The notes below the pieces were generated by a model. That model did not search any database, had not been told where the DNA came from, and saw only the letters and a list, made by a program, of their open reading frames with translations. A program made the translations under genes and the position numbers. From positions 5,252-69,251 of the forward strand of contig JACAFF010000017.1 of NCBI GenBank assembly GCA_013388455.1: a stretch of DNA of 64,000 nt, read 5' to 3'. The DNA is from Nitrospirota bacterium (GTDB lineage Bacteria; Nitrospirota; Thermodesulfovibrionia; Thermodesulfovibrionales; SM23-35). Positions within the stretch are counted from its first letter, which is position 1. The number at the start of each line of letters is the position of its first letter. Of the stretch, positions 1-15,015 are shown piece by piece.

Positions 1-1734
1 CACATCCATACACCTCATGCACTGATAACATATATCAGTATTTATAGAGAGAATTCCAAGGCCAGAACATACTTTTGCCCTGCAGTATTTTTGAAAAACA
101 TGTTCTTCATATTCCTCACGGAAATATTTTATTGTTGATAAAACAGGATTTGGAGCTGAATTCCCAAGCCCGCACAGAGCAGCCTCTTTAACCTTTTTAC
201 CTAATTCCTCAAGCTTCTCGATATCTCCAGATTCTCCATTCCCCGATGTAATCTTTTCAAGTATCTGCATCATCTGGTAAGTTCCGATTCTGCATGGAGG
301 GCATTTACCACATGATTCTGCCTGACAGAAGGATAGAAAGAATTTTGCAACATCAACCATGCAGTTATCTTCATCCATCACTACCATACCGCCCGAACCC
401 ATAATTGAACCTAATTTTGTTAATGAATCAAAGTCTACAGGTATATCAAGATATTTTTCTGGAATACATCCACCTGAAGGACCTCCTGTCTGAACTGCCT
501 TAAATTTTTTATCATGGAGAATTCCACCACCAATATCGTATATAATTTCCCTCAGCGTTATTCCCATCGGAACTTCAATTAACCCTGTGTCCACAACCTT
601 TCCTGTTAATGCAAATACTTTGGTACCGGGCGAATTCTGGGTCCCGATGCTGAGGAACCAGTCTGCACCTTTCTCAATAATATATGGAACACAAGCATAT
701 GTTTCTACATTATTAAGATTTGTAGGATAACCCCATACACCGCCTCCTTTTTCAGATAATCTTGGCGGTCTTGGCCTTGGAAATCCTCTATCTCCTTCTA
801 CAGATGCAACAAGGGCGGTTGATTCACCACATACAAAGGCGCCTGCACCTTGAGCTAACCTTATATCAAAACTTAAATCGGTTCCAAGTATATTTTCGCC
901 CAAAAGTCCCACCTCTTCAGCCTGTTTTATAGCAATACCGAGGTTCTGAACAGCCAGAGGATATTCATGACGCACATAAATAATTCCGTGCCTTCCACCT
1001 ATTGCATATGCACATAAAATCATGCCTTCAAGTAAACTGTGAGGATCACCTTCCATAACTGATCTATCCATAAAAGCTCCCGGATCACCCTCATCGCCAT
1101 TTGCTATTACAAATTTTAAGCCAGGAGACCTTTTTGTATGTCTCCATTTTTTACCAGCAGGGAAACCAGCACCACCACGTCCTCTGAGATTTGCCTTATC
1201 AACCTCATCAAGAACCTGATCAGGAGTCATCTGAAGAAATGCTTTCTCCAGAGCTCTATAACCACCAATTGCAATGTAGTGATAAATATTAGTTGGATCT
1301 ATTCTTCCATTATTGCGAAGTGCTACTCTTTTCTGTTTGCTATAAAAAGGAACCTCATTAATATGATATGCCCTTTCTCCATAAGTTTGGCGGTAAAGGA
1401 GATCCATTATGGGTTTTTCTCCCTCTATTGTCCGCACAATGATGTCTCTTGCCCTTTGAGGTTGAACCCTGTGGTAAAAATATTCCTGTGGCTCAACTAT
1501 CATAACAGGGCCTTTCTGGCATAGACCCTGACAACCTGTTGATATTATTTCAACATCGGTTGCACTCTGGTTAGCAGCGTTTTTAAGTTCCTCTAATAGT
1601 TTTAAAGACTTATTTGCTTTACAGCCTGTTCCGCAACAAACTCTTATCCTCTTTTTCCCCGGTTCTAAGACACCGTCTTTTTGTAAATATTCACGGAGGC
1701 TAATAAGTTCTTTTACACTGTTTAATCTTTTCAT
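1..1734 (-). CDS. nuoF: NuoF/HydB-family NAD(P)H-binding Fe-S flavoprotein, paralogue 3 (3' end runs off the window)
   Basis: Absent from the ORF track; translated by hand from ATG at 1734: MKRLNSVKELISLRE...VCCGTGC...GCQGLCQKGP...LRGRGGAGFP...NGDEGDPGAFMDR...CGESTAL...GGPSGGC...CGKCPPC...KYCRAKVC...CYQCMRC. Symbol is family-level only. Confidence 0.9.
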   Translation of the reverse strand, partial: MKRLNSVKELISLREYLQKDGVLEPGKKRIRVCCGTGCKANKSLKLLEELKNAANQSATDVEIISTGCQGLCQKGPVMIVEPQEYFYHRVQPQRARDIIVRTIEGEKPIMDLLYRQTYGERAYHINEVPFYSKQKRVALRNNGRIDPTNIYHYIAIGGYRALEKAFLQMTPDQVLDEVDKANLRGRGGAGFPAGKKWRHTKRSPGLKFVIANGDEGDPGAFMDRSVMEGDPHSLLEGMILCAYAIGGRHGIIYVRHEYPLAVQNLGIAIKQAEEVGLLGENILGTDLSFDIRLAQGAGAFVCGESTALVASVEGDRGFPRPRPPRLSEKGGGVWGYPTNLNNVETYACVPYIIEKGADWFLSIGTQNSPGTKVFALTGKVVDTGLIEVPMGITLREIIYDIGGGILHDKKFKAVQTGGPSGGCIPEKYLDIPVDFDSLTKLGSIMGSGGMVVMDEDNCMVDVAKFFLSFCQAESCGKCPPCRIGTYQMMQILEKITSGNGESGDIEKLEELGKKVKEAALCGLGNSAPNPVLSTIKYFREEYEEHVFQKYCRAKVCSGLGILSINTDICYQCMRCMDV

Positions 1735-1749
1735 TGTTTTTTCATTGTA

Positions 1750-3981
1750 TCATTTAAGCATATTAACATCAACTCTGGATTCTACCATGTAAGATATCTC
1801 AGGAAGCAGATAAGAGATAAGGTCTCTAACCGTAATCATTCCCAGAATTGTATCTTCTTCAACAACTGGCAAATGCCTCTTATTCTTTCTGCTTGAAATA
1901 GCTATCGCTGCATTTATAGCCATCGAAGGACTGAATGTTGTAATATTTGTGTCCATTGCATCTTTAATAGTTTGATTTTTATTAATGGAGTAAATTTCAT
2001 GGGGTTTTGATAAAAGTATATCTTTTAAAGTCATTTTACATCTCTTTTCCATTAATTCGACATTATTAGCAGGTATTTTAAGTTTCTCTTCAAGCTTTAT
2101 ATATTTTTCTTTTATAATCTTCACTGCACCAACAGGACAGACATGATAGCAGGCTTTACATCTCGTGCAGTAATGCATGACAATAAAAAAACTTCTTCTG
2201 GTCTCTTTTACTGCATCAAAAGCGCACGCCTGTTTACATAGTCCGCAGAGGATACATTCTTCTTGTTCGATTTTCAGCATCCCTATATTGCAGACCTTGG
2301 CTCTGCAATATTTATCATGTATATGTTCCTCGTATTCTTCACGGAAATATTTGATTATTGTAAGTATAGGATTCGGTGCACTCTGTCCAAGCCCACATAA
2401 TGAACTTGCTTTAATATTCTTTCCTAATCTCTCAAGTTTTTCAATATCTCCAGGTTCACCCTTGCCTGATGTTATCTTTTCAAGTATCTGTAACATCTGG
2501 TATGTTCCAATTCTACATGGAATGCATTTTCCACAGGATTCAGATTGTGTGAATGAAAGGAAGAACTTAGCTACATCTACCATACAGTTATCTTCATCCA
2601 TCACTACCATTCCGCCTGAACCCATAATAGAACCTACTTTATTAAGCGAATCAAAATCAACTGGTAGATCAAGATACTTTTCAGGAATACAACCACCTGA
2701 AGGACCTCCAGTCTGAACCGCTTTGAATTTTTTATTCCCCAGGATACCTCCTCCGATATCAAATATAATCTCTCTTAAAGTAATACCCATGGGAACCTCA
2801 ACAAGTCCTGTATTTTTGACTTTTCCTGTCAAGGCAAATACCTTGGTTCCTGGAGAGTTTTCTGTTCCGATGCTAAGAAACCAGTCTGCCCCTTTTTCGA
2901 TAATGGAAGGGATACACGCATATGTCTCAACGTTATTAAGGTTCGCAGGATAGCCCCATGGCCCTCCTCCTGGCTCTGAAACCCTTGGCGGTCTTGGATG
3001 AGGGAAGCCCCTCCTGCCTTCTATAGAAGCTATAAGTGCTGTTGCCTCACCACAAATAAAAGCGCCCGCACCCTCTCTTATATGAATAGTAAAATTAAGA
3101 CCTGTTCCTAAAATGTTTTCTCCTAAAAGTCCCAACTTTTCAGCCTGTTCAATTGCAATCTTGAGATTTTTAACAGCAAGCGGATATTCATGACGAACAT
3201 ATATAAAACCGTAACTAGCCCCGATAGCATAAGCACATATAATCATGCCTTCAATAAGGCTATGGGGATCACCCTCCATGATAGACCTATCCATAAAAGC
3301 ACCTGGATCTCCTTCATCTCCATTTGCAATAACCATCTTAATATTGCCAGGAGCCTTTTTCGTATGAGCCCATTTTACCCCTGCAGGGAAACCTGCACCA
3401 CCTCTTCCCCTAATATTAGCCTTCTTTACTTCTTCAAGTACCTGATCAGGAGTCATTGAAGAGAACATCTTTTCAACAGCTTTATAGCCTCCAACAGCTA
3501 TATAATGATAAATATTAGCAGGATCAATCTTGCCATTATTACTCAAAGCAATCCTCATCTGTTTCTTATAGAATGGAACATCTTCCATATTTTCAATTGG
3601 TTTATCGAGAAAATTACCTCTATAAAGAAGCTTCCTGACTGGAGAATCTTCAAAAAAGGTTGCAGAAATAATATCACGAACACTATGATGTTTTACTTTT
3701 TGATAAAAAAATTCATGAGGTTCAATACTCATCACAGGACCTTTCTGACAGAGTCCCTGGCATCCTGTAGTTACTATCTCTAAATCAATGCCGCTTTTCT
3801 CTGCTTCTTCTTTTAAACTTTCTGCCACTTCAAGGGATTTATTCGCCCTGCATGCCGTACCGCAGCAGTTCCTTATTCTGTTTTTCCCAGGAGCCAGTAT
3901 TTCTTCTCTGGAGATGAGCTCACGTAAATCAGCAAGTTCACTAATTTTGTTTAGTCTGTGTATATTGTCTACTGTTATCAT
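1750..3981 (-). CDS. nuoF: NuoF/HydB-family flavoprotein, paralogue 2, with 2x[4Fe-4S] domain and an internally deleted C-terminal CBS pair
   Basis: RGRGGAGFP, NGDEGDPGAFMDR, GGPSGGC, CGKCIPC, two CxxCxxCxxxC motifs, and a CBS motif RHLPVVEEDTILGMITVRDL. Confidence 0.9.
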   Translation of the reverse strand: MITVDNIHRLNKISELADLRELISREEILAPGKNRIRNCCGTACRANKSLEVAESLKEEAEKSGIDLEIVTTGCQGLCQKGPVMSIEPHEFFYQKVKHHSVRDIISATFFEDSPVRKLLYRGNFLDKPIENMEDVPFYKKQMRIALSNNGKIDPANIYHYIAVGGYKAVEKMFSSMTPDQVLEEVKKANIRGRGGAGFPAGVKWAHTKKAPGNIKMVIANGDEGDPGAFMDRSIMEGDPHSLIEGMIICAYAIGASYGFIYVRHEYPLAVKNLKIAIEQAEKLGLLGENILGTGLNFTIHIREGAGAFICGEATALIASIEGRRGFPHPRPPRVSEPGGGPWGYPANLNNVETYACIPSIIEKGADWFLSIGTENSPGTKVFALTGKVKNTGLVEVPMGITLREIIFDIGGGILGNKKFKAVQTGGPSGGCIPEKYLDLPVDFDSLNKVGSIMGSGGMVVMDEDNCMVDVAKFFLSFTQSESCGKCIPCRIGTYQMLQILEKITSGKGEPGDIEKLERLGKNIKASSLCGLGQSAPNPILTIIKYFREEYEEHIHDKYCRAKVCNIGMLKIEQEECILCGLCKQACAFDAVKETRRSFFIVMHYCTRCKACYHVCPVGAVKIIKEKYIKLEEKLKIPANNVELMEKRCKMTLKDILLSKPHEIYSINKNQTIKDAMDTNITTFSPSMAINAAIAISSRKNKRHLPVVEEDTILGMITVRDLISYLLPEISYMVESRVDVNMLK

Positions 3982-4009
3982 TTAATCCCGCAATTACTCT
4001 TTAATTAAT

Positions 4010-6343
4010 TCAATACATCGTTTCTGCCATAAAACATATCTCTGGAAGTAAATATGAAATCAGATCCCTGTAAGTAATCATTCCTATAATCTTGTCCCCC
4101 TCGACAACAGGTAGATGTCTGATCCCTTTTCTTGAAGCTATAGCTACTGCAGAACTAATTTCAGTAGATGGATCAAAAGTTGTTATTTCCCTCGACTTTA
4201 TTGATTCAAGAGTTTCATTAAATGGGATATTATTAAATACACACCGCACTATATCTCTCTCAGTAAACAGACTTACCAGTTTCTCATTTTCGTCAACAAC
4301 AAATAATCCACTGATATTCCTCTGGGCCATTAAGTGCACTGCATCTGAAATTGTCAGATCTTTATGAATGGTTACAATCTCATATGGCCTTGCTTCCAAG
4401 ATATGCTTTAGTTTCATTTTTCTTCTCCTTTCAACGAGCTCGATTGTTTCAAAAGGCAATTTTAACTCTTCTTCGAGTCTTATGTATTCCTGTTTCATTA
4501 TCTTTACAGCTTTAACAGGACAAACATTATAGCAGGCCTTGCATTTTGTACAATAATTTCTGTCGATAAAGAAACTCCTTCTTGTCTCCTTTATGGCATC
4601 AAAAGCACATGCTTGCTTACAAAGACCGCAAAGTATGCATTCATTATGGTCAATCCAGAAAAATCCAAGATTGCATACTTTTGCCCTACAATATTTATCT
4701 CTTACATGCTCTTCGTATTCTTCCTGAAAATATTTAATAGTCGTAAGAACTGGATTCGGTGCACTCTTACCAAGACCACAGAGTGAACCTGATATAACGA
4801 GTTCCCCCAGTCTCTTTAACTTCTCAATATCTCCTGCTTCACCATTGCCTGAAGTTATCTTTTCAAGTAACTGCAACATCTGATATGTTCCAATCCTACA
4901 AGGTGGACACTTTCCGCATGATTCCGCCTGTGTGAAAGAAAGGAAAAATTTTGCAACATCAACCATGCAATTATCTTCATCCATAACAACCATACCACCA
5001 GATCCCATAATTGAACCTAATTTTGTTAATGAATCAAAGTCTACAGGTATATCAAGATATTTTTCTGGAATACATCCACCTGAAGGACCTCCAGTCTGAA
5101 CTGCCTTGAATCTTTTATCACCTATAATGCCACCACCGATATCAAATATAATCTCTCTTAAAGTAATACCCATGGGAACCTCAACAAGTCCTGTATTTTT
5201 GACTTTACCAGCCAGTGAAAATACCTTTGTACCAGATGAACTTGATGTGCCTATATTTAAGAACCAGTCTGCACCGTTGTTGATGATCGGAGGGATACAG
5301 GCATAGGTTTCTATGTTATTAAGATTAGCAGGGTAACCCCAGGGTCCACCTCCTGGTTCTGATACCCTTGGTGGTCTCGCATGTGGATAACCTCTCCTGC
5401 CTTCTATTGATGCAACAAGTGCAGTTGCCTCTCCACAGACAAAGGCACCCGCCCCTTCCCTGATATGAACTGTAAAATCAAATCCAGTCCCGAGGATATT
5501 TTTTCCTAAAAGCCCTATTTCCTCTGCCTGCTTGATAGCTGTCTTTAATGTTTTAATGGCAAGAGGATATTCATGACGAACGTAAATGAACCCATATTGA
5601 GCATTAATTGCATAAGCACAGATGAGCATTCCTTCAAGAAGGCTATGGGGATCACCTTCCATGATAGACCTGTCCATAAAAGCACCAGGGTCCCCCTCAT
5701 CACCATTGGCTATAACTATTTTTATATTACCGTCAGCCCTTTTAGCATGAGCCCATTTTACACCTGCCGGGAATCCTGCTCCTCCACGCCCTCTAATATT
5801 TGATTTTCTTACCTCTTCTATTACCTGTTCAGGACTCATCTCTAAGAGTATTTTTTCAATAGCCTTGTAACCATCGACTGCTATATAATGATAAATATTA
5901 AACGGATCTATCTCGCCTGTATTTCTGAGAGCAATCTTTAATTGTTTAGTATAGAAAGGAACTTCTTTCTGGGAAGCTTTTGGTGTATCAATAAAAGAAT
6001 CACGGTATTGAAGTTCTCTGACGGGTTCTCTCATCACGAATGTTCTGTTAATAATATCTTGTGCTTTGTCAGCATGAACCTTCTGATAGAAAAAGCCATA
6101 AGGCTTAACTTTTATAAGAGGTCCTTTTTGACAGAGTCCCTGACACCCTGTCTTGATCACCTCAATCTGAAAATTACTCGTTGCCGCCTCTTTCTGCAAT
6201 GCATCTGCCACTTTATGAGACCCCAGTGTACTGCAAGGCAACCCGCAGCAGACTTTGAGAATATTTTTATCAGGGCTGAAGATATCACTCCGAAGAATAG
6301 ATCTGAGGTCTGCAAGCTCACTTATGGAATGCAATCTTTCCAT
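4010..6343 (-). CDS. nuoF: NuoF/HydB-family flavoprotein, paralogue 1, with 2x[4Fe-4S] domain and a complete C-terminal CBS pair
   Basis: Same core motifs; tandem CBS motifs ISGLFVVD..SLFTERDI and IRHLPVVE..GMITYRDL. Confidence 0.9.
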   Translation of the reverse strand: MERLHSISELADLRSILRSDIFSPDKNILKVCCGLPCSTLGSHKVADALQKEAATSNFQIEVIKTGCQGLCQKGPLIKVKPYGFFYQKVHADKAQDIINRTFVMREPVRELQYRDSFIDTPKASQKEVPFYTKQLKIALRNTGEIDPFNIYHYIAVDGYKAIEKILLEMSPEQVIEEVRKSNIRGRGGAGFPAGVKWAHAKRADGNIKIVIANGDEGDPGAFMDRSIMEGDPHSLLEGMLICAYAINAQYGFIYVRHEYPLAIKTLKTAIKQAEEIGLLGKNILGTGFDFTVHIREGAGAFVCGEATALVASIEGRRGYPHARPPRVSEPGGGPWGYPANLNNIETYACIPPIINNGADWFLNIGTSSSSGTKVFSLAGKVKNTGLVEVPMGITLREIIFDIGGGIIGDKRFKAVQTGGPSGGCIPEKYLDIPVDFDSLTKLGSIMGSGGMVVMDEDNCMVDVAKFFLSFTQAESCGKCPPCRIGTYQMLQLLEKITSGNGEAGDIEKLKRLGELVISGSLCGLGKSAPNPVLTTIKYFQEEYEEHVRDKYCRAKVCNLGFFWIDHNECILCGLCKQACAFDAIKETRRSFFIDRNYCTKCKACYNVCPVKAVKIMKQEYIRLEEELKLPFETIELVERRRKMKLKHILEARPYEIVTIHKDLTISDAVHLMAQRNISGLFVVDENEKLVSLFTERDIVRCVFNNIPFNETLESIKSREITTFDPSTEISSAVAIASRKGIRHLPVVEGDKIIGMITYRDLISYLLPEICFMAETMY

Positions 6344-6384
6344 GATACCAATTCCTTTTTAAATGTATTATTTTAAAGGCTTCT

Positions 6385-6873
6385 CTAATCTTCTTTTATC
6401 GATTTAATTAAGGCTTCTATTTTCTTCTCACCTATAAGTTCTCCTGTTACTTCATCATTGATGGTAGTAACAGGAGCAAGACCACAGCAACCCACACATC
6501 CAACTGTCTCAAGTGTCATAGCAAGATCATCAGTGGTATCTCCACTCTTTACATTGAATTCAGTTTCAAGAGCTGTTAAAATTTTCTTTGACCCTCTTAC
6601 GTAACATGCTGTACCCAGACAGACTTTTACAATTTTCCTTCCTCTCGGTTTAAAATGAAACATCTTATAGAAACTTGCAACACTGTATATCTCGGACAAT
6701 GCAATATTAAGCTTTTTGGAAAGCTTTCTCAAAACTTCTTCCGGTAGATAACCTTCTTCTTCCTGTATCTGCTGTAATGCATGGATGAGTATTCCTCTTC
6801 TCGCCTCCTGTTCACCGATTATTCTGCTAACTCCGCCAATCTGTTCATCAATATTAATCTCTTCTACATCCAT
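6385..6873 (-). CDS. nuoE: NuoE/HydC-family [2Fe-2S] subunit
   Basis: GYLPEE, VASFY, CLGTAC...CVGCCGLAP; start moved to the ATG at 6873 behind GGAGG. Confidence 0.9.
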   Translation of the reverse strand: MDVEEINIDEQIGGVSRIIGEQEARRGILIHALQQIQEEEGYLPEEVLRKLSKKLNIALSEIYSVASFYKMFHFKPRGRKIVKVCLGTACYVRGSKKILTALETEFNVKSGDTTDDLAMTLETVGCVGCCGLAPVTTINDEVTGELIGEKKIEALIKSIKED

Positions 6874-6889
6874 ATAACCTCCAAAATTC

Positions 6890-6953
6890 CAGTCACCGGT
6901 CATTAAGTCATCGGTCATTCTAAATATTGACTACTGACTAATGACTATTGACT
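6890..6953. repeat. Inverted array of heptamer repeats (RGTCAYY x4 / AHTGACT x4)
   Basis: agtcacc ggtcatt a agtcatc ggtcatt ... attgact actgact aatgact attgact. Confidence 0.75.
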
Positions 6954-6960
6954 TTCTTGA

Positions 6961-8943
6961 TTATAATCCAAGATGTGGTTTTGCACCTTTTTCAAGCTCG
7001 CGCCTTGCAGCCATATCCATCAAAACTCTTTCTACCCCGAATCTGCCAGGTTGATATTTCCTGAGTTTCAGTGCATCCCTCGCTCTATCAATGTAATCTA
7101 AAGTGAGCTCAAGTATCTTTTCTGGATCAGGCTCGAAATGAAGCGCACCCTTAAATCTCTCAAACCATACTTCTGTCATTATCTTTGTCACTTCTTTGCT
7201 TGCTCCAACCGGGGATTCTCCTCCGAATATAACAGGTACACCTGATGCAACAAAATAGCATCCGATTGAAATTGCCTTTTCGGACATCCACTCGGGTGCA
7301 ATGCCTACTGCCGGCATTCCTCCTATTTCGTCAGAAAGACCGCCTTCGGCAGCCATTGCAGCTGCTATAGTTAAAATCCTTGAATTATCCACACAAGAAC
7401 CAAGGTGAAGAATAGGAGGAATTCCTATTGCTTCACATACCTCCCGTAAACCAGGCCCTGCATTTTCAAGAGCCATCTCTGGAGTAAGATATCCAGCAGT
7501 CCCGCAGGCATGTGAACCACAACCTGTTGATACTATAAGCACATCATTCTTAATTAATTCAATCGCAAGAAAACGATGAAGACCCTGTGACGGAACCCGT
7601 GGATTATCACATCCTGCAAGCCCAACAACACCACGAATTCTTCCAGCTATTATCGCATCATTCAAAGGCCTGAATGACGCGCGCCATCTCCCTCCTTGCA
7701 TATATTCTATGTATTCATGTGAAAAACCTGCTATTACAGGAAATTTATCCGTAACATGACTGCCTTTACCTTTCCTGTTAGAAAAATTATCAATAGCTGT
7801 CCTGACTATCTGACGCGCTATCTCCCTTGCTCTGTGTTCGTCATATTCTATGTGTAAAGCACCCTGTATCTTTGCCTTATAAGAAGTAGTTATTACTTTT
7901 GTATGAAATTTCTGTGATAGTTCTGTCAGAGCAGGCATAATGCATTGCACATCAACTGTTATTGCATCAATAAGTCCTGTAAGAACAGCGAGTTCCTGAT
8001 TGGTAAAACCGCCAGCAGTGGAAATACCATGCCGCATCAGTACTTCATTAGCTGTGCAGCACATGCCACCGAGATTTATTCCCTTTGCACCTTTTGTTTT
8101 TGCATATTCGATCATGTCTGGCTCGTTGACAACATCTACAATCACTTCTGCAAGTGAAGGTTCATGTCCGTGGACTACGAGGTTGACTTCATCCTCCTTG
8201 AAAATTCCGAAACTTGCTTCTGCTTTTACCGGATGAGGCGTTCCAAAAAGTATATCTGTTATATCTGTCGAAATCATACTTCCGCCCCACCCATCTGCAA
8301 TTGATACTTTCAAAGCGCTCAGGAGAAGATTATCAGGGTCATGGTCAACACCCATATGAGTGCGATGCATTGCTTCTGTTATTTCTCTGTCAATACCTCT
8401 CGGAATGATTCCCCATTTCCTCCATCTTTCCTGTGTCTTCTTAGGTGCTCTCTTAATAAAGTTCAGTTCTCCTTTTTGTCTTCCAAAATCTTCAAGTAGC
8501 TTTGTTGCAACATCTCTTGCTACATCATTCACTTGACGTCCTTCAAATTCTATTTCGAGTATTTCAGCAATTCTGTATAGTTTTCTAACATCTGTTATTC
8601 TGAAGTCTTTTGTCTCACCATTTGCTACTGCAAGCAATATAAATACCATGTCTCTGGCATGATCAGAGTGTGCAGATGCACCTGCAACAGCCATCCTTAA
8701 AAAATTCCTTGCAGAAACTGTTGGTAGCGTTGCACCACATACTCCTCTTGCTTCATTTTCCGCATTTAGCCCCACGAATCTGCATGGTCCCATATGACAT
8801 ATTTTGCAACATGCCCCTGCAGCACCAATCGGACAGGGTTTGTTCTTTTCTGCCCGTTCAAAACATGTCTGTATATTTTGAGTTTCACCCCATTCTATAA
8901 TTTCTTCAGATGCCTTATTTGCACTCTTTATAATTTTGTCCAT
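6961..8943 (-). CDS. cooS: Anaerobic Ni-Fe carbon monoxide dehydrogenase catalytic subunit (CooS/AcsA)
   Basis: CPIG..CCKICHMGPC..CG (D/B cluster), HSDH, HGHEP, MCCTANE, GSCVDNSR, PEWMSEKA; start at ATG 8943 after GGAGG. Confidence 0.95.
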   Translation of the reverse strand: MDKIIKSANKASEEIIEWGETQNIQTCFERAEKNKPCPIGAAGACCKICHMGPCRFVGLNAENEARGVCGATLPTVSARNFLRMAVAGASAHSDHARDMVFILLAVANGETKDFRITDVRKLYRIAEILEIEFEGRQVNDVARDVATKLLEDFGRQKGELNFIKRAPKKTQERWRKWGIIPRGIDREITEAMHRTHMGVDHDPDNLLLSALKVSIADGWGGSMISTDITDILFGTPHPVKAEASFGIFKEDEVNLVVHGHEPSLAEVIVDVVNEPDMIEYAKTKGAKGINLGGMCCTANEVLMRHGISTAGGFTNQELAVLTGLIDAITVDVQCIMPALTELSQKFHTKVITTSYKAKIQGALHIEYDEHRAREIARQIVRTAIDNFSNRKGKGSHVTDKFPVIAGFSHEYIEYMQGGRWRASFRPLNDAIIAGRIRGVVGLAGCDNPRVPSQGLHRFLAIELIKNDVLIVSTGCGSHACGTAGYLTPEMALENAGPGLREVCEAIGIPPILHLGSCVDNSRILTIAAAMAAEGGLSDEIGGMPAVGIAPEWMSEKAISIGCYFVASGVPVIFGGESPVGASKEVTKIMTEVWFERFKGALHFEPDPEKILELTLDYIDRARDALKLRKYQPGRFGVERVLMDMAARRELEKGAKPHLGL

Positions 8944-8961
8944 ATAACCTCCATCTAAATA

Positions 8962-9028
8962 AGCCATTAGTTAACTGTCATCAGTCATTGTCTTTTTACT
9001 CTTGACTAATGACTATTAACTGATAACT
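8962..9028. repeat. Second inverted heptamer repeat array
   Basis: agccatt agttaac tgtcatc agtcatt ... ttgact aatgact attaact gataact. Confidence 0.65.
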
Positions 9029-9032
9029 TTCT

Positions 9033-11231
9033 TTATAGCATCGGTTCCATCTCAAGTGCAGGATGTCCAACACTTGTAAGGAATTCGAGTAATTTTTCAG
9101 AGTCTTCACATATAGTCTCATCGGCTATCTTATCAAGCAGGTCTGGGACTCCTTCTTCTTCAGCTCTCTTGTTAAAAGCCTCTTTAAGGCCTTCTTTCAG
9201 ATTCTTTGTCATCCAGACTATCCTTTTAATCCCACCATCTCCTGCAAGAAACTTCTTGCTGACAATAAAGTTTCTTCCTATACCCATAAATCCAGGATTC
9301 TGTGTTCCTCCCCCAACACTTCCTGCAAGTGTCGAGAATTTCATTCCAACAGGGGTCATACCAGTATGCCCGCGCTGGACAATCATAACGCCATTTGCTT
9401 CAGGAATTATTGCTACAATACATTCAAAGCAACCGCAGGAAGTCATTGGATTTTCCATAATTGTATATAGATTTAGCGTCTCAACTGAACCACCAGATGC
9501 CTTTTTCAGATAATCATCAATTCCAGAGTATCTGCCGTAACGCGCATCCAGAAGCTCTCCTTTTATTATAGGCTGGTTACCTCCGGTTGGATCAATCTCA
9601 TACGCTGCCCTACAGTCAAGCCAGTTAAAAGCTCCGCATAGACCGAGCCTTTCTGGGCTTACAACACACACATGACTTGGAGCAAATGATTGACAGAGAA
9701 GACATGAATAGAAGGTATCTACTGCTTCATCGGTAAGACCACCGAGCCTCTGGTCTCTTTCTCTGTAAGCTTTCCTCGCCTCTTCCTGAATTCTCAGAAC
9801 GTCTTCCTCATCAGTATAAAGAGTAACCTGAACTTTGTCTACAATAGTTTTGAATCTATTATGTATCATAGTTATATTAATGATTCCAAGATGTTCGAGA
9901 GTAAAGCCTTCCTTCTTGGCATTATGGCTAATTCTAAGCCAGTTAATATCACGCTGACCCATATGCCACACACCTTGTGCCTCATTGATATTGGAATGCA
10001 CTTTTCGCTCTATGACCGATTCAAAATCTGTCTGCATTTTTCTTCCAGCAACATCTATTACAATACCAAGAGGCATTTGGCCACCCTTATTGTATTTCTC
10101 CTCCCAATCGTTTCCAACAATAATTACCTTGCCATCTTCTATTTCATCCATTTCCTTCATCCGCACCCATTCGAATGAGGGGGTTCTGTTACCACCGAAC
10201 TCCATGAACATATCTTCTTTACGAATTCTTTCACCTTCAAATGCAGGACCATACGCAACAGGAATTGGTGGTTTTTCAACTATAATCTTTAAACCTCTGA
10301 CCTCTATAGCCTTCTGGACAATCTTATCGTGATCCAGCTCTTTATCAACTTCTTCATAAATACATACACCTGTTGGATGTATGACAGGCACATCAGTATC
10401 ACAGACCGCTGGGTATCCCATGTTTATTGCACCTGCACCTGTTGTCCATTTTATTTCGTCAAGATCCCCTAATACCAGGGCAAAAGCAAAAACCCTGTCT
10501 TTCGTATATTTGAGATGGGCTTTATAATCACCCGGCTTTTTACCTCCAAAAATAAGAGAAGCTCTTATTGACCAGTCCAATGGATATATCGTATGCTCTG
10601 TATCTGGTCCTACAGGCACGATCCGCGTCTCCCATCCCAGTTCTACACCTTTCCTGAGAAGCTGCTTTGTAACGCTGTTCCCATTAACATGGCCTGACAG
10701 AAAAGTAAGGATATTCTTTTCCTGAAGTTCTCGCACTATCTTTACAGCTGTGTCGTCATCTGGAGCTGCTCCAATAATAGCTGCAAAACCTGGCATAGTT
10801 CCATCAACAAGCTGAATGCCTAAATTCCTCTGAATAGTATCAGTAATAAATCCATTATAAACATATCCAGTCTCAGGGTCTGTAAAAGGTTCAAGATTAT
10901 TTATATACCGAAGTGCCATTAGAATCTCTTCTGCGAAAAGTGATGCCATTCCTGAATCCAATGCTTCACCGAGATATGGTCTCCACAAGTTCTCTTCTGG
11001 TTCCGGGTGTAACATTTCTTTTGCCATCCCGAGTGCAACCCTCATATCTGATAGTGTCTTTACTGGAAAAGCTGTCATAGCATATATAAGTGGTAAATAA
11101 AAAGCTGTATCGGGAAACTCGAAAGTAAAATTTTCGCCTTTTTCTGATATATTTTTTTCGAGCATATCTTCTGCCTTCTTGACAAGTAAATGGGCACCTC
11201 TTATAGCGGCTGAGGCAATTAGCTTGGACAT
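9033..11231 (-). CDS. acsB: Acetyl-CoA synthase (CO-methylating), bacterial type
   Basis: FPDTAFYLP N-domain, YSCLLCQSFAPSHVC, LGLCGA, PMTSCGCFE A-cluster ligands. Confidence 0.97.
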   Translation of the reverse strand: MSKLIASAAIRGAHLLVKKAEDMLEKNISEKGENFTFEFPDTAFYLPLIYAMTAFPVKTLSDMRVALGMAKEMLHPEPEENLWRPYLGEALDSGMASLFAEEILMALRYINNLEPFTDPETGYVYNGFITDTIQRNLGIQLVDGTMPGFAAIIGAAPDDDTAVKIVRELQEKNILTFLSGHVNGNSVTKQLLRKGVELGWETRIVPVGPDTEHTIYPLDWSIRASLIFGGKKPGDYKAHLKYTKDRVFAFALVLGDLDEIKWTTGAGAINMGYPAVCDTDVPVIHPTGVCIYEEVDKELDHDKIVQKAIEVRGLKIIVEKPPIPVAYGPAFEGERIRKEDMFMEFGGNRTPSFEWVRMKEMDEIEDGKVIIVGNDWEEKYNKGGQMPLGIVIDVAGRKMQTDFESVIERKVHSNINEAQGVWHMGQRDINWLRISHNAKKEGFTLEHLGIINITMIHNRFKTIVDKVQVTLYTDEEDVLRIQEEARKAYRERDQRLGGLTDEAVDTFYSCLLCQSFAPSHVCVVSPERLGLCGAFNWLDCRAAYEIDPTGGNQPIIKGELLDARYGRYSGIDDYLKKASGGSVETLNLYTIMENPMTSCGCFECIVAIIPEANGVMIVQRGHTGMTPVGMKFSTLAGSVGGGTQNPGFMGIGRNFIVSKKFLAGDGGIKRIVWMTKNLKEGLKEAFNKRAEEEGVPDLLDKIADETICEDSEKLLEFLTSVGHPALEMEPML

Positions 11232-11284
11232 TACTTCCTCCTGTATTTAAAATTGAAAAGCAAAATTTAAAAAAATTTCTATTT

Positions 11285-12640
11285 CTATGCTGTCCTTACT
11301 CTTAAAAATGCAGGAATGCCATTTGCTTCTCTTGGTCCTACAGTGACTTTCCACCCATCAAGTTTATCTTCAATTGCCCCACTTAGTATTGCTACATATC
11401 CAGGAATTATTAATTCTCGATGTTTTATTTCTTTCTCTACTCCGCTTTCCTTGATGAATTGCGCAATCTTTCCTGCTGTAAATTTTCCGGCTGCCCACGC
11501 AGTAAGAACAGAAAGTCCTTCGCAGTCCATTACAGCAAGATAACTCGGGATCCTGCTGTTTTCTATTTCTCCTGAAACAATGAAGTATGTAAGTGAGAAA
11601 TTAGTTGTTATCATAAGTGGGGAATCAGGAGTTGGTTCGCCAAGTTTATAAATTTTCTGTTCAACCTGCATAGGGACCTGTGGATCTGTGTAAATATTCT
11701 GTCTTAATGTAAACAGAACTATGTTCTTCCATTTTTCGATGCTGCTAAGAACAATAATTGAAGAGTACTTTATAGTAGCGAGACCTGCTATAAGTGCTTC
11801 TGTAAGACTGTCTTCTCGTTGAGCAAAAGTGATCACAGGGAATCCAAGTGGTTTAAAATTCTTTTTTATGGCTGATCTTCTTATCAATGTGTTATGTTCC
11901 AATATTTCGTTTGCCTTTCTTGCACCTGAATCTATTACCATATCAGATATTCCTGAAGATTGAAGCTTTTCTGTTAATGAAACGAGAGCTTCAAAACCAC
12001 CATTAGTTGATGAGACAGTAACACCAGCAATTGCATTGTATTTTTTTACAATTGGCACTATCTGTTCAACATTGTCTTTGTTTACTCCATAAACTATAGG
12101 CCTTTTATCAGCACAAAGCTTCAACGCAGACTCAGCAGATTGCGGGTTAACTGTGCAAATAATCAGAGGCACTTCAGGTGCTTTTGTAATAATCGTCTTA
12201 ACAGCATACTCAAACTTTCCTGCATCATTTGAATCATTAAAAAGGGCTATCGCATCTATCCTTAGTTTCTGTCCCACTCTGTCAATTTCTGAATGAAGCA
12301 CTTCATCAACCTTCTTTATTATTTCAGACTCTGGAAGTGTGTCTTTAATCTCTAATGCAAATGCACAGGGATTAACAAATCTTTTATCGTGTCTAAAAAG
12401 GACAGTCTCTTCCCCCAATTTTATAGATCTTTCACCAATGCCAAAAGTGATAGGTCTTATTGGTGGTGCAGAAGCCTCTCCGAGTTTTTGTCTGGCTTCA
12501 TCAGAGACATCAGGACATGCATCCAGCGACGCTTGCCTCTGTGCCAGTTTCATTGCAAAAGCAAGACACGTGGGAAATCCGCATTTTTTACAGTTTGTTT
12601 TTGGTAACAGCTTAAATATCTCAACACCGGTTAAAGCCAT
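11285..12640 (-). CDS. acsC: Corrinoid iron-sulfur protein large subunit
   Basis: LPKTNCKKCGFPTCLAFAM, TTNFSLTYF, SVLTAWAAGKF. Confidence 0.97.
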   Translation of the reverse strand: MALTGVEIFKLLPKTNCKKCGFPTCLAFAMKLAQRQASLDACPDVSDEARQKLGEASAPPIRPITFGIGERSIKLGEETVLFRHDKRFVNPCAFALEIKDTLPESEIIKKVDEVLHSEIDRVGQKLRIDAIALFNDSNDAGKFEYAVKTIITKAPEVPLIICTVNPQSAESALKLCADKRPIVYGVNKDNVEQIVPIVKKYNAIAGVTVSSTNGGFEALVSLTEKLQSSGISDMVIDSGARKANEILEHNTLIRRSAIKKNFKPLGFPVITFAQREDSLTEALIAGLATIKYSSIIVLSSIEKWKNIVLFTLRQNIYTDPQVPMQVEQKIYKLGEPTPDSPLMITTNFSLTYFIVSGEIENSRIPSYLAVMDCEGLSVLTAWAAGKFTAGKIAQFIKESGVEKEIKHRELIIPGYVAILSGAIEDKLDGWKVTVGPREANGIPAFLRVRTA

Positions 12641-12664
12641 TCTTTTACCTCCGTTAACAACTTT

Positions 12665-13609
12665 CTACCCTATTAATTCGTCAATAATTTTCTCAACTCC
12701 TTCAACTGCTTTAGGATGCCTCATAATCAGAAGTTCAGCTCCTGCAATAAGCAATGACATTGCTGTAACAGCTTCCCATGCTATTCCTCTATCTGAAACA
12801 TTCCCCCATTGTGGCACTTCATCTTCAGTGGCCTGAGTTTCTTTTACTTTCCATACATACATTCCTATATCCCCTAATAATGGTTGCTGCATAGTCACAT
12901 CGTTCTGAGTGAGTGCTGCAAGTCGTATTCTCTCCATAACTGAATAGGTATATTCAAGTCCATAACCTAAGGCAGAACACATGGGATCGATAATAATTCT
13001 CTCTTTATCAAAACCCATCTGTGTAATAAGAATATTCAACTGTTTTGATAGATTAATATCAAGTTCGGACATAGCAATTAATTTATGGTTATGTGCCATA
13101 GCAGCAGCAGCGATCGTTTTGTAATTTGCTTCCTGCGCCTTCCCAATTATACAATTTCTTCCTTTTGCTGCCTCCGCAGCTGCAATCAAAATAGAAGCAT
13201 CTTTCTCTGCATGGTTACTGCCAAGTATAATTAAAGGAACATCAACTGCTGAAAGGACTTCTCTTACCGTCTTAGCAGCATGTTCAGGTGGACTATTTTC
13301 TCTGTCTGGGTGTGTGCTTATCAACCTCAGCGCTATAGTTTTAGCATGCAAATCATTCTGACAAAACTTTGCCCATGATACAGGATCGTTTGATACACCA
13401 TCATATAGTTTTTGTAAATTTTCAGGCCAGTCAATTGGAGGCACATCCTGTATTTCATAAGCGATTAAAGGTCTATTAGGACATGATCCATCAAAAACAT
13501 GGAGGTTAAGGACATTCTCCCCTCCGAATTTTATTTCTTTTGGATCATCTCCGATAGATACTTGATAAACTTTCCCTGAATATGTCTCTTTCGGTGGGGT
13601 AAAAGCCAT
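12665..13609 (-). CDS. acsD: Corrinoid iron-sulfur protein small subunit
   Basis: DINLSKQLN, ALGYGLEYTYSVMERIRLAAL, LIMRHP; start after GGAGG. Confidence 0.95.
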   Translation of the reverse strand: MAFTPPKETYSGKVYQVSIGDDPKEIKFGGENVLNLHVFDGSCPNRPLIAYEIQDVPPIDWPENLQKLYDGVSNDPVSWAKFCQNDLHAKTIALRLISTHPDRENSPPEHAAKTVREVLSAVDVPLIILGSNHAEKDASILIAAAEAAKGRNCIIGKAQEANYKTIAAAAMAHNHKLIAMSELDINLSKQLNILITQMGFDKERIIIDPMCSALGYGLEYTYSVMERIRLAALTQNDVTMQQPLLGDIGMYVWKVKETQATEDEVPQWGNVSDRGIAWEAVTAMSLLIAGAELLIMRHPKAVEGVEKIIDELIG

Positions 13610-13722
13610 CTTATCCTCCAATTAGCAATTTTAATAATTCATTAAGAAACTTTATTTTAATAAATTAAAGTATGAGTATGCAATTTTTTATTAGCCCATT
13701 TTTTACACTCTGATAAATAATC

Positions 13723-14508
13723 CTAATGTATCTCTAAATAAGAATGAGCATAAAGAGTCCTTCCCATAATGACATTAATAGTCTTTACTGTTGGAGTAAT
13801 CTCATGAGGATCAGCAATAACAGCAGTCAAACCTTCATACATCAAAAGTGAAAGGAAATGATTATTTAATATCGGCCTTATGTGTTTTGGGCACCCATTC
13901 GATACATTACTAAGACCTACTACTGTTTTCATTGGTGGATCATTAAGTTCTTGAAAAATCCTGACAGCCTTTATGACCTTCAATGCATGGTCCTGGGAAG
14001 TTGCCACTTGCAACACCAGAGGATCCAGATATAAGTCTTCAAGAGGAACACCATATTCTGAAGTTCTTGCCATAATTTCTGCTGCTAAAGCAGCTCTTTC
14101 TTCTGCATCTGCAGGCAAACCTCCTTTTCCAACAGTAAGACCTATTATCTGAGAATTATACTTTGCTGCAAGTTCGAGCATCGGAAACCTTTCGGGATCA
14201 TTTGATGTTGAATTGATAAGAGGCCTGCCCCACTGATTATTATGCACCTTTAGCCCAGCTTCAATTGCTTTATAATTTGTTGTATCAAGACAAACGGGCA
14301 AAGGGACTACTTCTTGTATTGTAGTTACCATCCATTGCATCATTTCTTCGCCTTGGTCTTCAGCAGGTCCGATATTTGCGTCTATCATTCCCGCGCCAGC
14401 TTTCCACTGTGATATAGCAATATCCTGTATCGGTCCTTTATCCTTTTTCAATAATGCTTCTCTTACTCTTTTAGCAATGATACTTAATTTTTCTCCAATG
14501 ATAAGCAT
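13723..14508 (-). CDS. acsE: Methyltetrahydrofolate:CFeSP methyltransferase
   Basis: MLIIGEKL, LCLDTT-like, LINSTS, DPLVL, GLSNVSNG pterin-binding barrel; start at ATG 14508 after GAAAGGAG. Confidence 0.92.
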   Translation of the reverse strand: MLIIGEKLSIIAKRVREALLKKDKGPIQDIAISQWKAGAGMIDANIGPAEDQGEEMMQWMVTTIQEVVPLPVCLDTTNYKAIEAGLKVHNNQWGRPLINSTSNDPERFPMLELAAKYNSQIIGLTVGKGGLPADAEERAALAAEIMARTSEYGVPLEDLYLDPLVLQVATSQDHALKVIKAVRIFQELNDPPMKTVVGLSNVSNGCPKHIRPILNNHFLSLLMYEGLTAVIADPHEITPTVKTINVIMGRTLYAHSYLEIH

Positions 14509-14549: not shown

Positions 14550-14592
14550 ATTGTATACCAGACAATCTTGATTTTCAAACTTGATTTTCAAA
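14550..14592 (-). promoter_or_regulatory. Putative sigma70 promoter of the acs operon, overlapped by a 13-bp tandem repeat
   Basis: Minus strand TTGAAA-17-TACAAT; CTTGATTTTCAAA x2 at 14567-14592. Confidence 0.5.
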
Positions 14593-14730
14593 ATTATGAA
14601 ACCTCAATAAAATGCATAAGTCAAAAACAATAACATAAAAACATTTTTCAGGTAAAGAACTTCTATAAGCAATTGTTAAAAATATCCTTGATTATTTTCT
14701 AAAAATAATTATAAAATCGCAGAAATAATA

Positions 14731-14759
14731 TTGACAAAGGTAGACGTTTATACTATCTT
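14731..14759 (+). promoter_or_regulatory. Putative sigma70 promoter
   Basis: TTGACA-17-TATCTT upstream of the small lipoprotein gene. Confidence 0.4.
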
Positions 14760-14799: not shown

Positions 14800-15006
14800 A
14801 TGAAGAAAATTATAGCGTTAATCTTATCATTAGCCTTAATGGTAGCATTTACAATAGGGTGCAAACCAGCTGAAACACCAAAGCCTGAGGCACCAGCACC
14901 AGCTCCAGCTCCAGCTCCTGAGCAGGCACCAGCTCCAGCTCCAGCTCCTGAGCAGGCTCCAGCTCCAGCTCCTGAGAAGCCAGCTGAAGCTCCAGCAGGC
15001 AAATAG
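14800..15006 (+). CDS. Small Pro/Ala-rich lipoprotein
   Basis: AAGGAGGT RBS, signal peptide with lipobox TIGC, PAPAPAPEQA repeats, downstream terminator. Confidence 0.8.
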   Translation: MKKIIALILSLALMVAFTIGCKPAETPKPEAPAPAPAPAPEQAPAPAPAPEQAPAPAPEKPAEAPAGK

Positions 15007-15015
15007 CAATTTAAC

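What the first reader, a model, noticed from the sequence alone, without database searches (positions are those of the whole stretch)
1..14508. CODH/ACS operon extended by NuoE plus three tandem HydB/NuoF paralogues: candidate electron-bifurcating CODH module
Seen: acsE-D-C-B-cooS is followed on the same strand, with short gaps, by one HydC/NuoE-like gene and three HydB-like genes. No HydA/NuoG, hydrogenase or FDH gene lies between them. Each paralogue has an N-terminal thioredoxin-like [2Fe-2S] domain, GAFM, TKVF, GGPSG, the C...H..C..C metal site and a ferredoxin domain (only its start is visible for copy 3). Known: these features characterise bifurcating HydABC/Bfu-type B subunits rather than complex I NuoF. 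Inference: a redox module supplying or removing low-potential electrons for CODH, with interchangeable B subunits. I am not aware of a characterised case of three tandem B subunits sharing one C subunit.
Basis: partly seen in the sequence, partly recalled or inferred. Interest (0 to 1): 0.85.

Follow-up and report, generated by a model that had tools for sequence, protein, structure and literature searches.

The report
Three-cassette NADPH module on CODH/ACS
In a hot-spring sulfur bacterium, the genes for the enzyme that builds acetyl-CoA from CO2 run on into an electron-bifurcating-type flavin module with three old, differently tailed copies of its flavin subunit, which likely lets the cell feed this carbon-fixing enzyme with NADPH as well as ferredoxin.

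Summary
Left of the window the cluster goes on with a flavin-less 205-aa 'mini-B' (only the Fe-S/Zn end of HydB) and a 674-aa BfuA/NuoG-like subunit without H-cluster or Mo/W site, so no hydrogenase or FDH is the partner. The module sits beside cooS or inside the acs genes in 33 of 41 genomes of the order (Thermodesulfovibrionales); 46 of 66 whole modules have one B, 14 two. The three copies are old (tree rejects one clade, p-AU 4e-5), bridged by contigs of two other studies, and not alike: B1 ends in a CBS pair, B2 in a CBS pair with a strain-level 47-aa deletion, B3 in two extra [4Fe-4S]. All three carry the NADP-type pocket of T. kivui HydB; NAD-type pockets occur only in multi-copy operons (8 of 14, 0 of 46). 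Best reading (0.55): an NADPH/ferredoxin bifurcating-type electron supply for CODH/ACS with alternative B cassettes; activity, complex, direction and co-transcription are untested. New variant of the predicted Codh-Bfu; not found in ten literature searches. The scan noted the module and the CBS fusion before on three other genomes.

The parts
13723..14508 (-). acsE, methyltetrahydrofolate:corrinoid Fe-S protein methyltransferase; likely start ATG 14508
   Evidence: Pterin_bind PF00809, NF040758 249.5 bits; AAGGAG before ATG 14508; relatives align from this residue
12665..13621 (-). acsD, small subunit of the corrinoid Fe-S protein
   Evidence: CdhD PF03599; NF003376 above cut-off
11285..12640 (-). 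acsC, large subunit of the corrinoid Fe-S protein
   Evidence: NF003195 590.6 bits, cut-off 306
9033..11231 (-). acsB, acetyl-CoA synthase
   Evidence: NF040764 1013 bits, cut-off 800
6961..8967 (-). cooS/acsA, Ni-CO dehydrogenase; about 35-aa C-terminal tail (634-668) not matched by solved CODHs
   Evidence: TIGR01702 589.5 bits, cut-off 478; solved CODHs match only up to residue 617-633; most relatives match to 668
6385..6918 (-). bfuC (HydC/NuoE-like [2Fe-2S] subunit), single copy; likely start at Met16
   Evidence: PF01257 157.8 bits; GGAGG before Met16
4010..6343 (-). bfuB1, 777 aa: thioredoxin-like domain, FMN domain, SLBB, N3/B1 cluster, Zn(B2) site, 2x[4Fe-4S], intact C-terminal CBS pair; NADP-type pocket (A306, R326)
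1750..3981 (-). bfuB2, 743 aa: same core, CBS pair with an in-frame 47-aa deletion near window 1957-1971; NADP-type pocket
   Evidence: orthologue P0238 (83% identical, 789 aa) has the 47 residues; run X8 record 23 carries 141 extra nt there, X2 and X3 share the deletion
1..1734 (-). bfuB3, 694 aa (runs on 351 nt left of the window, L001:4901-6985): same core, four ferredoxin motifs instead of CBS; NADP-type pocket (Ser, Arg)
   Evidence: groups with the polyferredoxin and POR-linked B copies
1..1 (-). OUTSIDE the window, to its left (placeholder coordinates): mini-B, 205 aa, L001:4259-4876 (G000:C36, same numbers). Only the N3/B1 four-helix domain, Zn(B2) ligands and 2x[4Fe-4S] of HydB; no FMN or thioredoxin domain
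   Evidence: Cys ligands and His116 invariant in 84 sequences; found in 37 of 41 genomes
1..1 (-). OUTSIDE the window, to its left (placeholder coordinates): bfuA, 674 aa, L001:2209-4233. NuoG/HydA-like, ligand sets for one [2Fe-2S] and four [4Fe-4S]; no H-cluster domain, no molybdopterin-dinucleotide domain, no Cys/Sec-His at the FDH active-site position
   Evidence: ligands invariant in 89 sequences
14708..14737 (-). best sigma-70-like promoter match upstream of acsE (11 of 12); a lead only
   Evidence: the region holds 45 matches against 43.3 in shuffles

Best explanation
The CODH/ACS genes are followed by a Bfu (HydABC-type) module of one C, three B, one flavin-less mini-B and one A subunit with no active site of its own, which likely couples NADPH and ferredoxin to the CO2/CO chemistry of CODH, the three B copies likely acting as alternative cassettes on one A/C scaffold. 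Shown: gene order, domain content, cluster ligands, NADP-type pocket residues, conserved linkage to cooS, age of the copies. Inferred: electrons from NADPH (at FMN) and reduced ferredoxin (at the C-terminal clusters of B) are merged at the B1-FMN-C1 site and passed through the Fe-S chain of A, probably with mini-B as adaptor, to CooS, so that CO2 reduction channelled to ACS costs less reduced ferredoxin; the reaction would be reversible during acetyl-CoA oxidation. B1 would be gated by an adenine nucleotide through its CBS pair, B2 would have lost that gate in this population, and B3 would reach another Fe-S partner through its two extra clusters; B3 belongs to the lineage that in relatives lies beside a pyruvate:ferredoxin oxidoreductase cluster, and this genome has no Bfu genes at its own por locus.
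For: Bfu-type core with all ligands kept. No catalytic domain in A and no FeFe-hydrogenase found in the genome; FDH has its own Bfu module next to fhs. Module directly after cooS or inside the acs genes in 33 of 41 genomes, within about 5 kb in 2 more; both genomes with no cooS match also lack it (G034, G038). It sits between acsC and acsB in L025 and between cooS and acsB in a Ca. Brocadiia record (L131), and follows cooS in a Desulfovibrionales record (L097) whose B nests inside the Nitrospirota clade. NADP pocket: T. kivui HydB, strictly NADP+-dependent (PMC8578170), has Ser and Arg340 (Arg340 contacts the nucleotide, PMC10021017) where three NAD-linked B subunits have Glu and Phe; all three copies here have Ala/Ser plus Arg, and the two positions co-vary in 111 of 111 distinct clade proteins (94 S/A+R, 17 E+F/Y). 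Copies are old and kept: monophyly rejected, orthologues at 88, 83 and 93%. Folate branch genes fhs, folD, metF present.
Against: No protein or activity data; promoter and terminator scans are at chance level, so one transcript is not shown. G035 keeps cooS/acsB without the module, and in G029, G037 and G002 linkage is absent or not shown, so the module is dispensable for CODH/ACS. The mean of NADPH (-380 mV) and ferredoxin (-500 mV) is above free CO2/CO (-520 mV; values from PMC9304861), so the fixing direction works only if ACS pulls the CO (recalled, not computed here). The NADP call rests on one characterised NADP enzyme against three NAD enzymes. B2 and B3 show a weak or no Shine-Dalgarno motif and B2 has lost part of its CBS pair, which fits decay as well as tuning. 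Which subunit touches CooS is unknown.
Confidence: 0.55

Rival explanations
1. The module serves CODH but does not bifurcate: it is a plain CO:NADP+ oxidoreductase (diaphorase) arm that makes NADPH during acetyl-CoA or CO oxidation, with ferredoxin handled separately by CODH or by mini-B.
For: CO (-520 mV) can reduce the pyridine nucleotide and ferredoxin without coupling (PMC9304861 says so itself). The genome has dsrA, and Thermodesulfovibrionia are suggested to run the pathway oxidatively (PMC11033732). Mini-B offers a separate ferredoxin-like exit.
Against: All B copies keep the features that non-bifurcating homologues lack according to PMC9304861 (extra B2-B5 sites, the conserved His): C/T/H at the B2 site in 106 of 113 proteins and His in all 113; thioredoxin-domain cysteines nearly invariant.
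Confidence: 0.2
2. The module is a shared NADPH/ferredoxin hub whose real partner lies elsewhere, such as the 11-subunit complex I that lacks nuoEFG in this genome (Nuo-Bfu-like) or pyruvate:ferredoxin oxidoreductase; it is only co-regulated with CODH/ACS.
For: The nuo operon on G000:C25 has no nuoEFG; A scores best with NuoG among NCBIfam models (346 bits, cut-off 470); PMC9304861 reports Nuo-Bfu in Nitrospirae. A copy of the module (B3 fused to mini-B) lies at a second locus in 14 distinct loci, with porC seen downstream in 9.
Against: G030 and G031 have nuoD with their own NuoF/NuoG neighbours and still keep the cooS-linked module; G034 and G038 have NuoD but no module. The module occurs with cooS in other phyla and is inserted among acs genes.
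Confidence: 0.12
3. The module works with CODH, but the extra B copies are functionally redundant leftovers of a duplication-prone locus (dosage or drift), with B1 doing the work and B2/B3 slowly decaying.
For: 46 of 66 whole modules have one B; all three copies here have the same pocket type; B2 has a CBS deletion and B2/B3 lack a clear ribosome-binding site; identical runs of 71 and 89 nt between copies and tails that do not follow the core tree point to gene conversion.
Against: Core protein identity stays at 71-86% while four-fold sites are near saturation; a related organism likely keeps all three at 83-93% identity with an intact CBS pair (P0122, P0238, P0243 share a longest contig of 47,011 nt); NAD-type pockets need at least three changes on the tree and, among whole modules, occur only in multi-copy ones.
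Confidence: 0.25
4. The triplication is an assembly artefact.
For: The genome is a 44-contig assembly; no single laid contig spans the whole stretch; two identical runs of 71 and 89 nt could mislead an assembler.
Against: Copies differ at 19-32% of core nucleotides; each junction is crossed by contigs from runs of other studies (X4, X8) at about 92-97% identity, and so are the identical runs in B1 and B3.
Confidence: 0.01

Closest known systems
Codh-Bfu (predicted, uncharacterised; Schut et al. 2022, PMC9304861)
   Same: BfuABC genes linked to a Ni-CODH, A subunit without catalytic domain, CO/CO2 as proposed third substrate.
   Different: Described as Type 2 (A lacks A3 and A5), 4 sequences, Firmicutes only, CODH genes between bfuB and bfuA. 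Here: Nitrospirota, full CODH/ACS operon, A with five cluster ligand sets (Type 3-like), cooS upstream of bfuC, an extra mini-B gene, CBS or polyferredoxin tails, NADP-type pocket, one to three B copies.
NiFe-Bfu HydABCSL of Acetomicrobium mobile (PDB 7T2R) and NADP-specific HydABC of Thermoanaerobacter kivui (PDB 8A6T)
   Same: Top two solved relatives of B1 (727 and 725 bits; 8A6T best fold match); 7T2R has an A subunit fed by extra subunits; 8A6T shares the Ser/Ala+Arg pocket and the N-terminal extension.
   Different: No hydrogenase subunit or H-cluster here; no solved relative listed covers residues 617-777 of B1 (CBS pair); no mini-B subunit appeared among solved structures.
Por-Bfu (predicted; PMC9304861)
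   Same: Relatives carry a copy of this module next to porCDAB, and B3 belongs to that B lineage.
   Different: Por-Bfu was described for Chloroflexi and syntrophic Proteobacteria; here B is fused to mini-B (about 900 aa, six ferredoxin motifs), and this genome's por locus has no Bfu genes.
Nuo-Bfu clade 39 (Planctomycetes, Nitrospirae; PMC9304861)
   Same: NuoG-like A subunit; same phylum.
   Different: Nuo-Bfu genes lie in the middle of the nuo operon; these lie in the acs operon on another contig.

Membership tests
Bfu (BfuABC) family, Schut et al. 2022 | BfuB with FMN-binding, SLBB, NADH_4Fe-4S and 4Fe-4S ferredoxin domains | tested here: met
   Pfam equivalents in all three copies; SLBB scores 23-26 bits against a cut-off of 27 (E 1e-5 to 6e-5); definition read
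Bfu (BfuABC) family, Schut et al. 2022 | BfuC, NuoE-like [2Fe-2S] subunit | tested here: met
   PF01257 157.8 bits; one copy for three B
Bfu (BfuABC) family, Schut et al. 2022 | BfuA with [2Fe-2S] and [4Fe-4S] ferredoxin domains | tested here: met
   L001:2209-4233
Bfu (BfuABC) family, Schut et al. 2022 | B2 (Zn or 2Fe-2S) site C438, C/T476, H525, C531, C536 of A. mobile | tested here: met
   B1 C459, T497, H546, C552, C557 by alignment to 7T2R_B; same in B2 and B3
Bfu (BfuABC) family, Schut et al. 2022 | Coupled reduction of NAD(P)+ and ferredoxin by a third substrate | not testable with these tools
   needs purified enzyme
Codh-Bfu as defined by Schut et al. (Type 2, clade 49) | BfuA lacks clusters A3 and A5 | tested here: not met
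   five complete ligand sets invariant in 89 sequences; Type 2 definition
Codh-Bfu as defined by Schut et al. (Type 2, clade 49) | CODH genes lie between bfuB and bfuA | tested here: not met
   cooS is upstream of bfuC; only mini-B lies between B and A
Codh-Bfu as defined by Schut et al. (Type 2, clade 49) | BfuB falls in clade 49 | not tested
   reference set of 1558 sequences not at hand; the held supplement is 8,449 characters of legends and one table; top PDB hit is the NiFe enzyme by only 2 bits
Bifurcating [FeFe]-hydrogenase HydABC | H-cluster domain in the A subunit | tested here: not met
   no such domain in A; PF02906 not found in G000
Fdh-Bfu / NAD(P)-dependent FDH | Mo/W site with Cys or Sec followed by His, and molybdopterin-dinucleotide domain | tested here: not met
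   A has no PF01568 and no Cys-His at the position aligned to FdsA; the Sec-type FDH is elsewhere, on C9
Nuo-Bfu / complex I N-module | bfuABC genes inside the nuo operon | tested here: not met
   nuoA-D,H-N on C25 without EFG; module on C36

The most novel reading that the evidence does not exclude
A modular electron-bifurcating front end on CODH/ACS itself: one A/C scaffold plus a new flavin-less Fe-S adaptor (mini-B) takes swappable B cassettes that set the pyridine nucleotide (NADP or NAD), the adenylate gate (CBS on, off or absent) and the Fe-S exit (two, four or six ferredoxin-type clusters), letting Wood-Ljungdahl carbon fixation draw half of its carbonyl-branch electrons from NAD(P)H under energy-charge control.
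Probability: 0.3. Interest if true: 0.85.

Novelty: new variant of a known kind. Interest (0 to 1): 0.6.

Why it matters
CODH is normally taken to be ferredoxin-dependent (T. kivui: PMC8578170). A bifurcating NADPH/ferredoxin input would change the energy budget of the Wood-Ljungdahl pathway in a widespread subsurface and hot-spring order and would give an ACS-linked Codh-Bfu, a class that the paper read here only predicts. A CBS pair on a bifurcating flavoprotein would be an allosteric handle not found in the searches made here, and the paired Glu/Phe versus Ser-Ala/Arg pocket gives a simple, testable rule for NAD versus NADP choice in HydB-type proteins. A named species carries a mini-B relative (Dissulfurispira thermophila JZK55_05520, named by the source; that it is in culture is recalled), so the question can be tested.

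Tried and rejected
Complex prediction of mini-B against BfuA(1-275) plus B1(135-620): no answer (score 0.00, mark 0.32); not used as evidence either way. Sequencing-run search: no RNA holder listed, so expression is unchecked; 5 of 12 listed runs were laid (X1-X4, X8), the other 7 were not. Promoter/terminator scans at chance level; no stable hairpin after bfuA (z 0.91). Genus-level search holds only G000. The cluster look-up for P0122, P0238 and others could not be made, so their sharing one contig rests on equal contig length alone. The careful B tree did not finish; quick trees were used, and the sister relation of B2 to the second copy of G001 (98) is not recovered in the 81-row tree. Three partial B proteins were left out, 17 of its 49 rows out, and the 900-aa forms, outgroups and two short cores out. 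Rejected: recent triplication in this lineage; orphan hydrogenase as partner (the NiFe enzymes on C9, C17 and C25 have their own partner genes; a fragment at the end of C34 was not resolved). The Lost City 'divergent FDH-like' gene (bioRxiv 2022.01.25.477282) was not compared and may or may not be related. Literature searches with no paper seen to describe this module: (most listed papers not opened); no paper was found for the Glu-to-Ala NADPH switch in NuoF, which is recalled only.
Full report
Observation. The window's minus strand carries acsE-acsD-acsC-acsB-cooS, one NuoE/HydC-like gene and three HydB-like genes, with gaps of 15-101 nt and family hits as expected. The window is G000:C36:5252-69251. 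The 5.2 kb to its left (L001) completes B3 (694 aa) and holds two more genes on the same strand, 24 and 25 nt apart: a 205-aa protein and a 674-aa protein; a 267-nt gap and a sensor-kinase-like gene (by eye) follow.

Anatomy. B1 (777 aa) has a thioredoxin-like domain, FMN domain, SLBB, the N3/B1 cluster domain, two ferredoxin motifs and a CBS pair; B2 (743 aa) is the same with one CBS match; B3 has four ferredoxin motifs and no CBS. The best solved relatives of B1 are bifurcating HydB/NfnB/StnB chains (E 3e-217 to 9e-178) ahead of complex I Nqo1/NuoF (E 2e-108), and none of the 60 listed covers residues 617-777; the predicted model (pLDDT 86.7) matches T. kivui HydB best. The B2/Zn site of A. 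mobile (C438, C/T476, H525, C531, C536; PMC9304861 section 6) maps to C459, T497, H546, C552, C557; later structures put Zn there (PMC11829005 passages). The 205-aa 'mini-B' aligns only to the C-terminal 160 residues of HydB and keeps its Cys ligands and the His in 84 of 84 sequences. The 674-aa A subunit keeps ligand sets for one [2Fe-2S] and four [4Fe-4S] in 89 of 89 sequences but has no H-cluster domain, no PF01568 and no Cys/Sec-His at the FDH site. The genome gave no FeFe-hydrogenase match; its Sec-type FDH has a separate C-B-A cluster next to fhs; folD, metF and dsrA are present.

Not an artefact. B2 and B3 are 72% and 62% identical to B1; in the core, nucleotide identity is 0.68-0.81 and four-fold sites 0.30-0.49, with longest identical runs of 71 nt (B1/B2), 89 nt (B1/B3) and 26 nt (B2/B3). 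Twelve DNA runs hold part of the stretch, the best being hot-spring metagenomes; five were laid. One X4 contig covers A, mini-B and half of B3. The B3/B2 junction is crossed in X2, X3, X4 and X8, B2/B1 in X3, X4 and X8 (X2 has too few letters on one side), B1/C in X2, X3 and X8, C/cooS in X2, X3, X4 and X8. X1-X3 are one study and X1 may be the source; X4 and X8 are other studies. No single piece spans everything. X8 record 23 has 141 more nucleotides at window 1957-1971, and protein P0238 (83% identical to B2) has 47 more residues there, so the CBS deletion in B2 is real in this population (X2, X3) and absent in relatives. By alignment to B1 it removes the T-E-R-D stretch that is invariant in 41 long B proteins; that this stretch binds the adenine nucleotide in CBS pairs is recalled.

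Distribution. Related records are titled Thermodesulfovibrionales/Nitrospirota, with three Desulfonatronospira, one Desulfovibrionales, one Nitrospinota and one Ca. Brocadiia (best 80 of 261 kept). Among 41 genomes of the order (loci read), the module lies directly after cooS (at most one short ORF between) or inside the acs genes in 33, within about 5 kb in 2 (G025, G033), unlinked or not shown in 3 (G002, G029, G037), is not found in G035, which has cooS and acsB, and is not found in G034 and G038, which gave no cooS match (G034 has a distant acsB). These genomes are kin, not independent. Of 66 distinct modules seen whole from C to A, 46 have one B, 14 two, 1 (this one) three, and 5 a fragmented B; 60 have acsB, acsC or cooS in the fetched stretch. 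G013 likely has three as well, split over two contigs (L051, L026), and P0122, P0238 and P0243, orthologues of B1, B2 and B3 at 88, 83 and 93%, share a longest contig of 47,011 nt, which suggests a third case. CBS fusions are common (229 proteins matched B1 residues 600-777; the 120 listed all carry PF00571) and stand-alone CBS genes follow B or A in several loci. A second copy of the module, with B3 fused to mini-B (about 900 aa), occurs in 14 distinct loci, with porC seen downstream in 9; G000 has porCDAB without it.

History. In core-domain trees B1, B2 and B3 fall in separate groups; B1 is closest to first copies of other genera and B3 to the polyferredoxin and POR-linked forms. Holding the three together is rejected (p-AU 3.9e-5, 32 rows, quick LG+G4). 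Tail types do not follow the core tree fully, which with the identical runs suggests gene conversion (inference).

Nucleotide pocket. T. kivui HydABC reduces NADP+ and not NAD+ (PMC8578170 section 18), with Arg340 contacting the nucleotide (PMC10021017 passages). In the alignments it has G-E-S and P-P-R where A. mobile, A. woodii and S. ovata B subunits have G-E-E and P-P-F. All three copies here have Ala or Ser plus Arg. The two positions co-vary in 111 of 111 distinct clade proteins from the loci (94 S/A+R, 17 E+F/Y) and in 177 of 178 database hits, one being unreadable. All 46 single-B modules are NADP-type; NAD-type appears in 8 of 14 double-B modules and needs at least three changes on the tree. 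So the cofactor switch goes with duplication in relatives, but in this genome the copies differ in their tails, not their pockets. The cofactor call is an inference from one NADP and three NAD references.

Mechanism. Bfu enzymes merge or split electrons at B1-FMN-C1, exchange with ferredoxin at the C-terminal clusters of B, and meet the third substrate through A (PMC9304861; PMC11829005). With no active site in A, the linked CODH is the likely third partner. With NADPH at -380 mV, ferredoxin at -500 mV and CO at -520 mV, merged electrons average -440 mV, enough only if ACS draws off the channelled CO (recalled: that step is exergonic by some tens of kJ/mol). An NADP pocket, a like module at POR in relatives and an NADP-type module at FDH fit an anabolic role; an oxidative role is not excluded. 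One C and one A for three B genes implies alternative complexes (inference). The role of mini-B is open; its near-constant presence (37 of 41 genomes) and its fusion to B at the por locus point to a true subunit. Co-transcription is not shown.

Comparison with what is known. The module meets the sequence definition of the Bfu family. It works like the predicted Codh-Bfu but fails two features given for it (Type 2 A subunit, CODH genes between bfuB and bfuA), and the paper lists that class for Firmicutes only and Nitrospirae only under Nuo-Bfu (supplement text; its tree figures are pictures and could not be read, and may hold unassigned Nitrospirota sequences). The Nuo-Bfu rival is real for this genome, whose complex I lacks nuoEFG, but G030 and G031 have their own NuoF/G beside nuoD and keep the cooS-linked module, and G034 and G038 have NuoD without it. 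Ten searches of the open-access library showed no paper on this operon, on CBS-fused HydB or on mini-B; most listed papers were not opened and subscription papers are not covered. Papers seen: PMC9304861 (abstract, passages, section 4 part 1, section 5 part 2, section 6 part 1, supplement passages); PMC8578170 (passages, section 18 part 1); PMC10021017, PMC10482914, PMC11829005, PMC11033732, PMC10203281 (passages); bioRxiv 2022.01.25.477282 (passages, section 8; supplements not seen); others as listings only. Earlier scan notes on three other genomes describe the same module and the CBS fusion; one reads it as NADH-linked, which the pocket residues here speak against; a word search for the three-copy case found none.

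Verdict. Real, conserved and uncharacterised; a new variant of a predicted kind. The triplication itself is the tail of a 1-2-3 series; the stronger points are the ACS-linked NADP-type Bfu module, the mini-B subunit, the CBS gate and the cofactor switch that goes with duplication. Interest 0.6.

Noticed in passing
L027, L033, L035, L038-L041 and others: Second module bfuC-bfuB(about 900 aa, B3 fused to mini-B, six ferredoxin motifs)-bfuA next to porCDAB in relatives: a Por-Bfu-like cluster in Nitrospirota; not at this genome's por locus (L059).
   Followed up: partly
L060:7977-13109 (G000:C9): bfuC-bfuB-fdhA with an in-frame TGA at the Sec position, followed by a small 151-aa gene and fhs; its B also has the Ala+Arg (NADP-type) pocket.
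   Followed up: partly
L061:1-3181 (G000:C3): A further B fragment at a contig end and a 902-aa FDH-like A subunit.
   Followed up: no
G000:C25:113853-126540: 11-subunit complex I (nuoA-D, H-N) without nuoEFG, divergent from an nfnAB-like gene pair (by eye).
   Followed up: partly
L059:10690-16001 (G000:C25): After por: an mglBA-like pair, then hdrA-, mvhD-, mvhG- and mvhA-like genes (by eye).
   Followed up: no
window 6961-7065 (cooS residues 634-668): Conserved C-terminal tail of CooS not matched by any solved CODH listed; also present in G035, which lacks the module.
   Followed up: partly
window 14567-14591, minus strand: Short direct repeat (12 nt, twice, period 13) just upstream of acsE, a possible regulator site.
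   Followed up: no
window about 14800-15010, plus strand: Small Pro/Ala-rich, lipoprotein-like reading frame with AP repeats between acsE and rimP (by eye).
   Followed up: no
L131:5142-20567; L097:133-13742: Ca. Brocadiia record with cooS-C-B-mini-A-acsB, and a Desulfovibrionales record with cooS-C-B-CBS-mini-A followed by the FDH module; their B proteins nest among Nitrospirota sequences, suggesting transfer (or mis-binning, not checked).
   Followed up: partly
L020 (G023:C1:3034000-3053999): A second, partly broken copy of the acsB-C-B-mini cluster in a complete genome.
   Followed up: no
window 36341-38887: 848-aa reading frame that looks like threonine synthase fused to a cystathionine gamma-synthase-like domain (by eye).
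   Followed up: no
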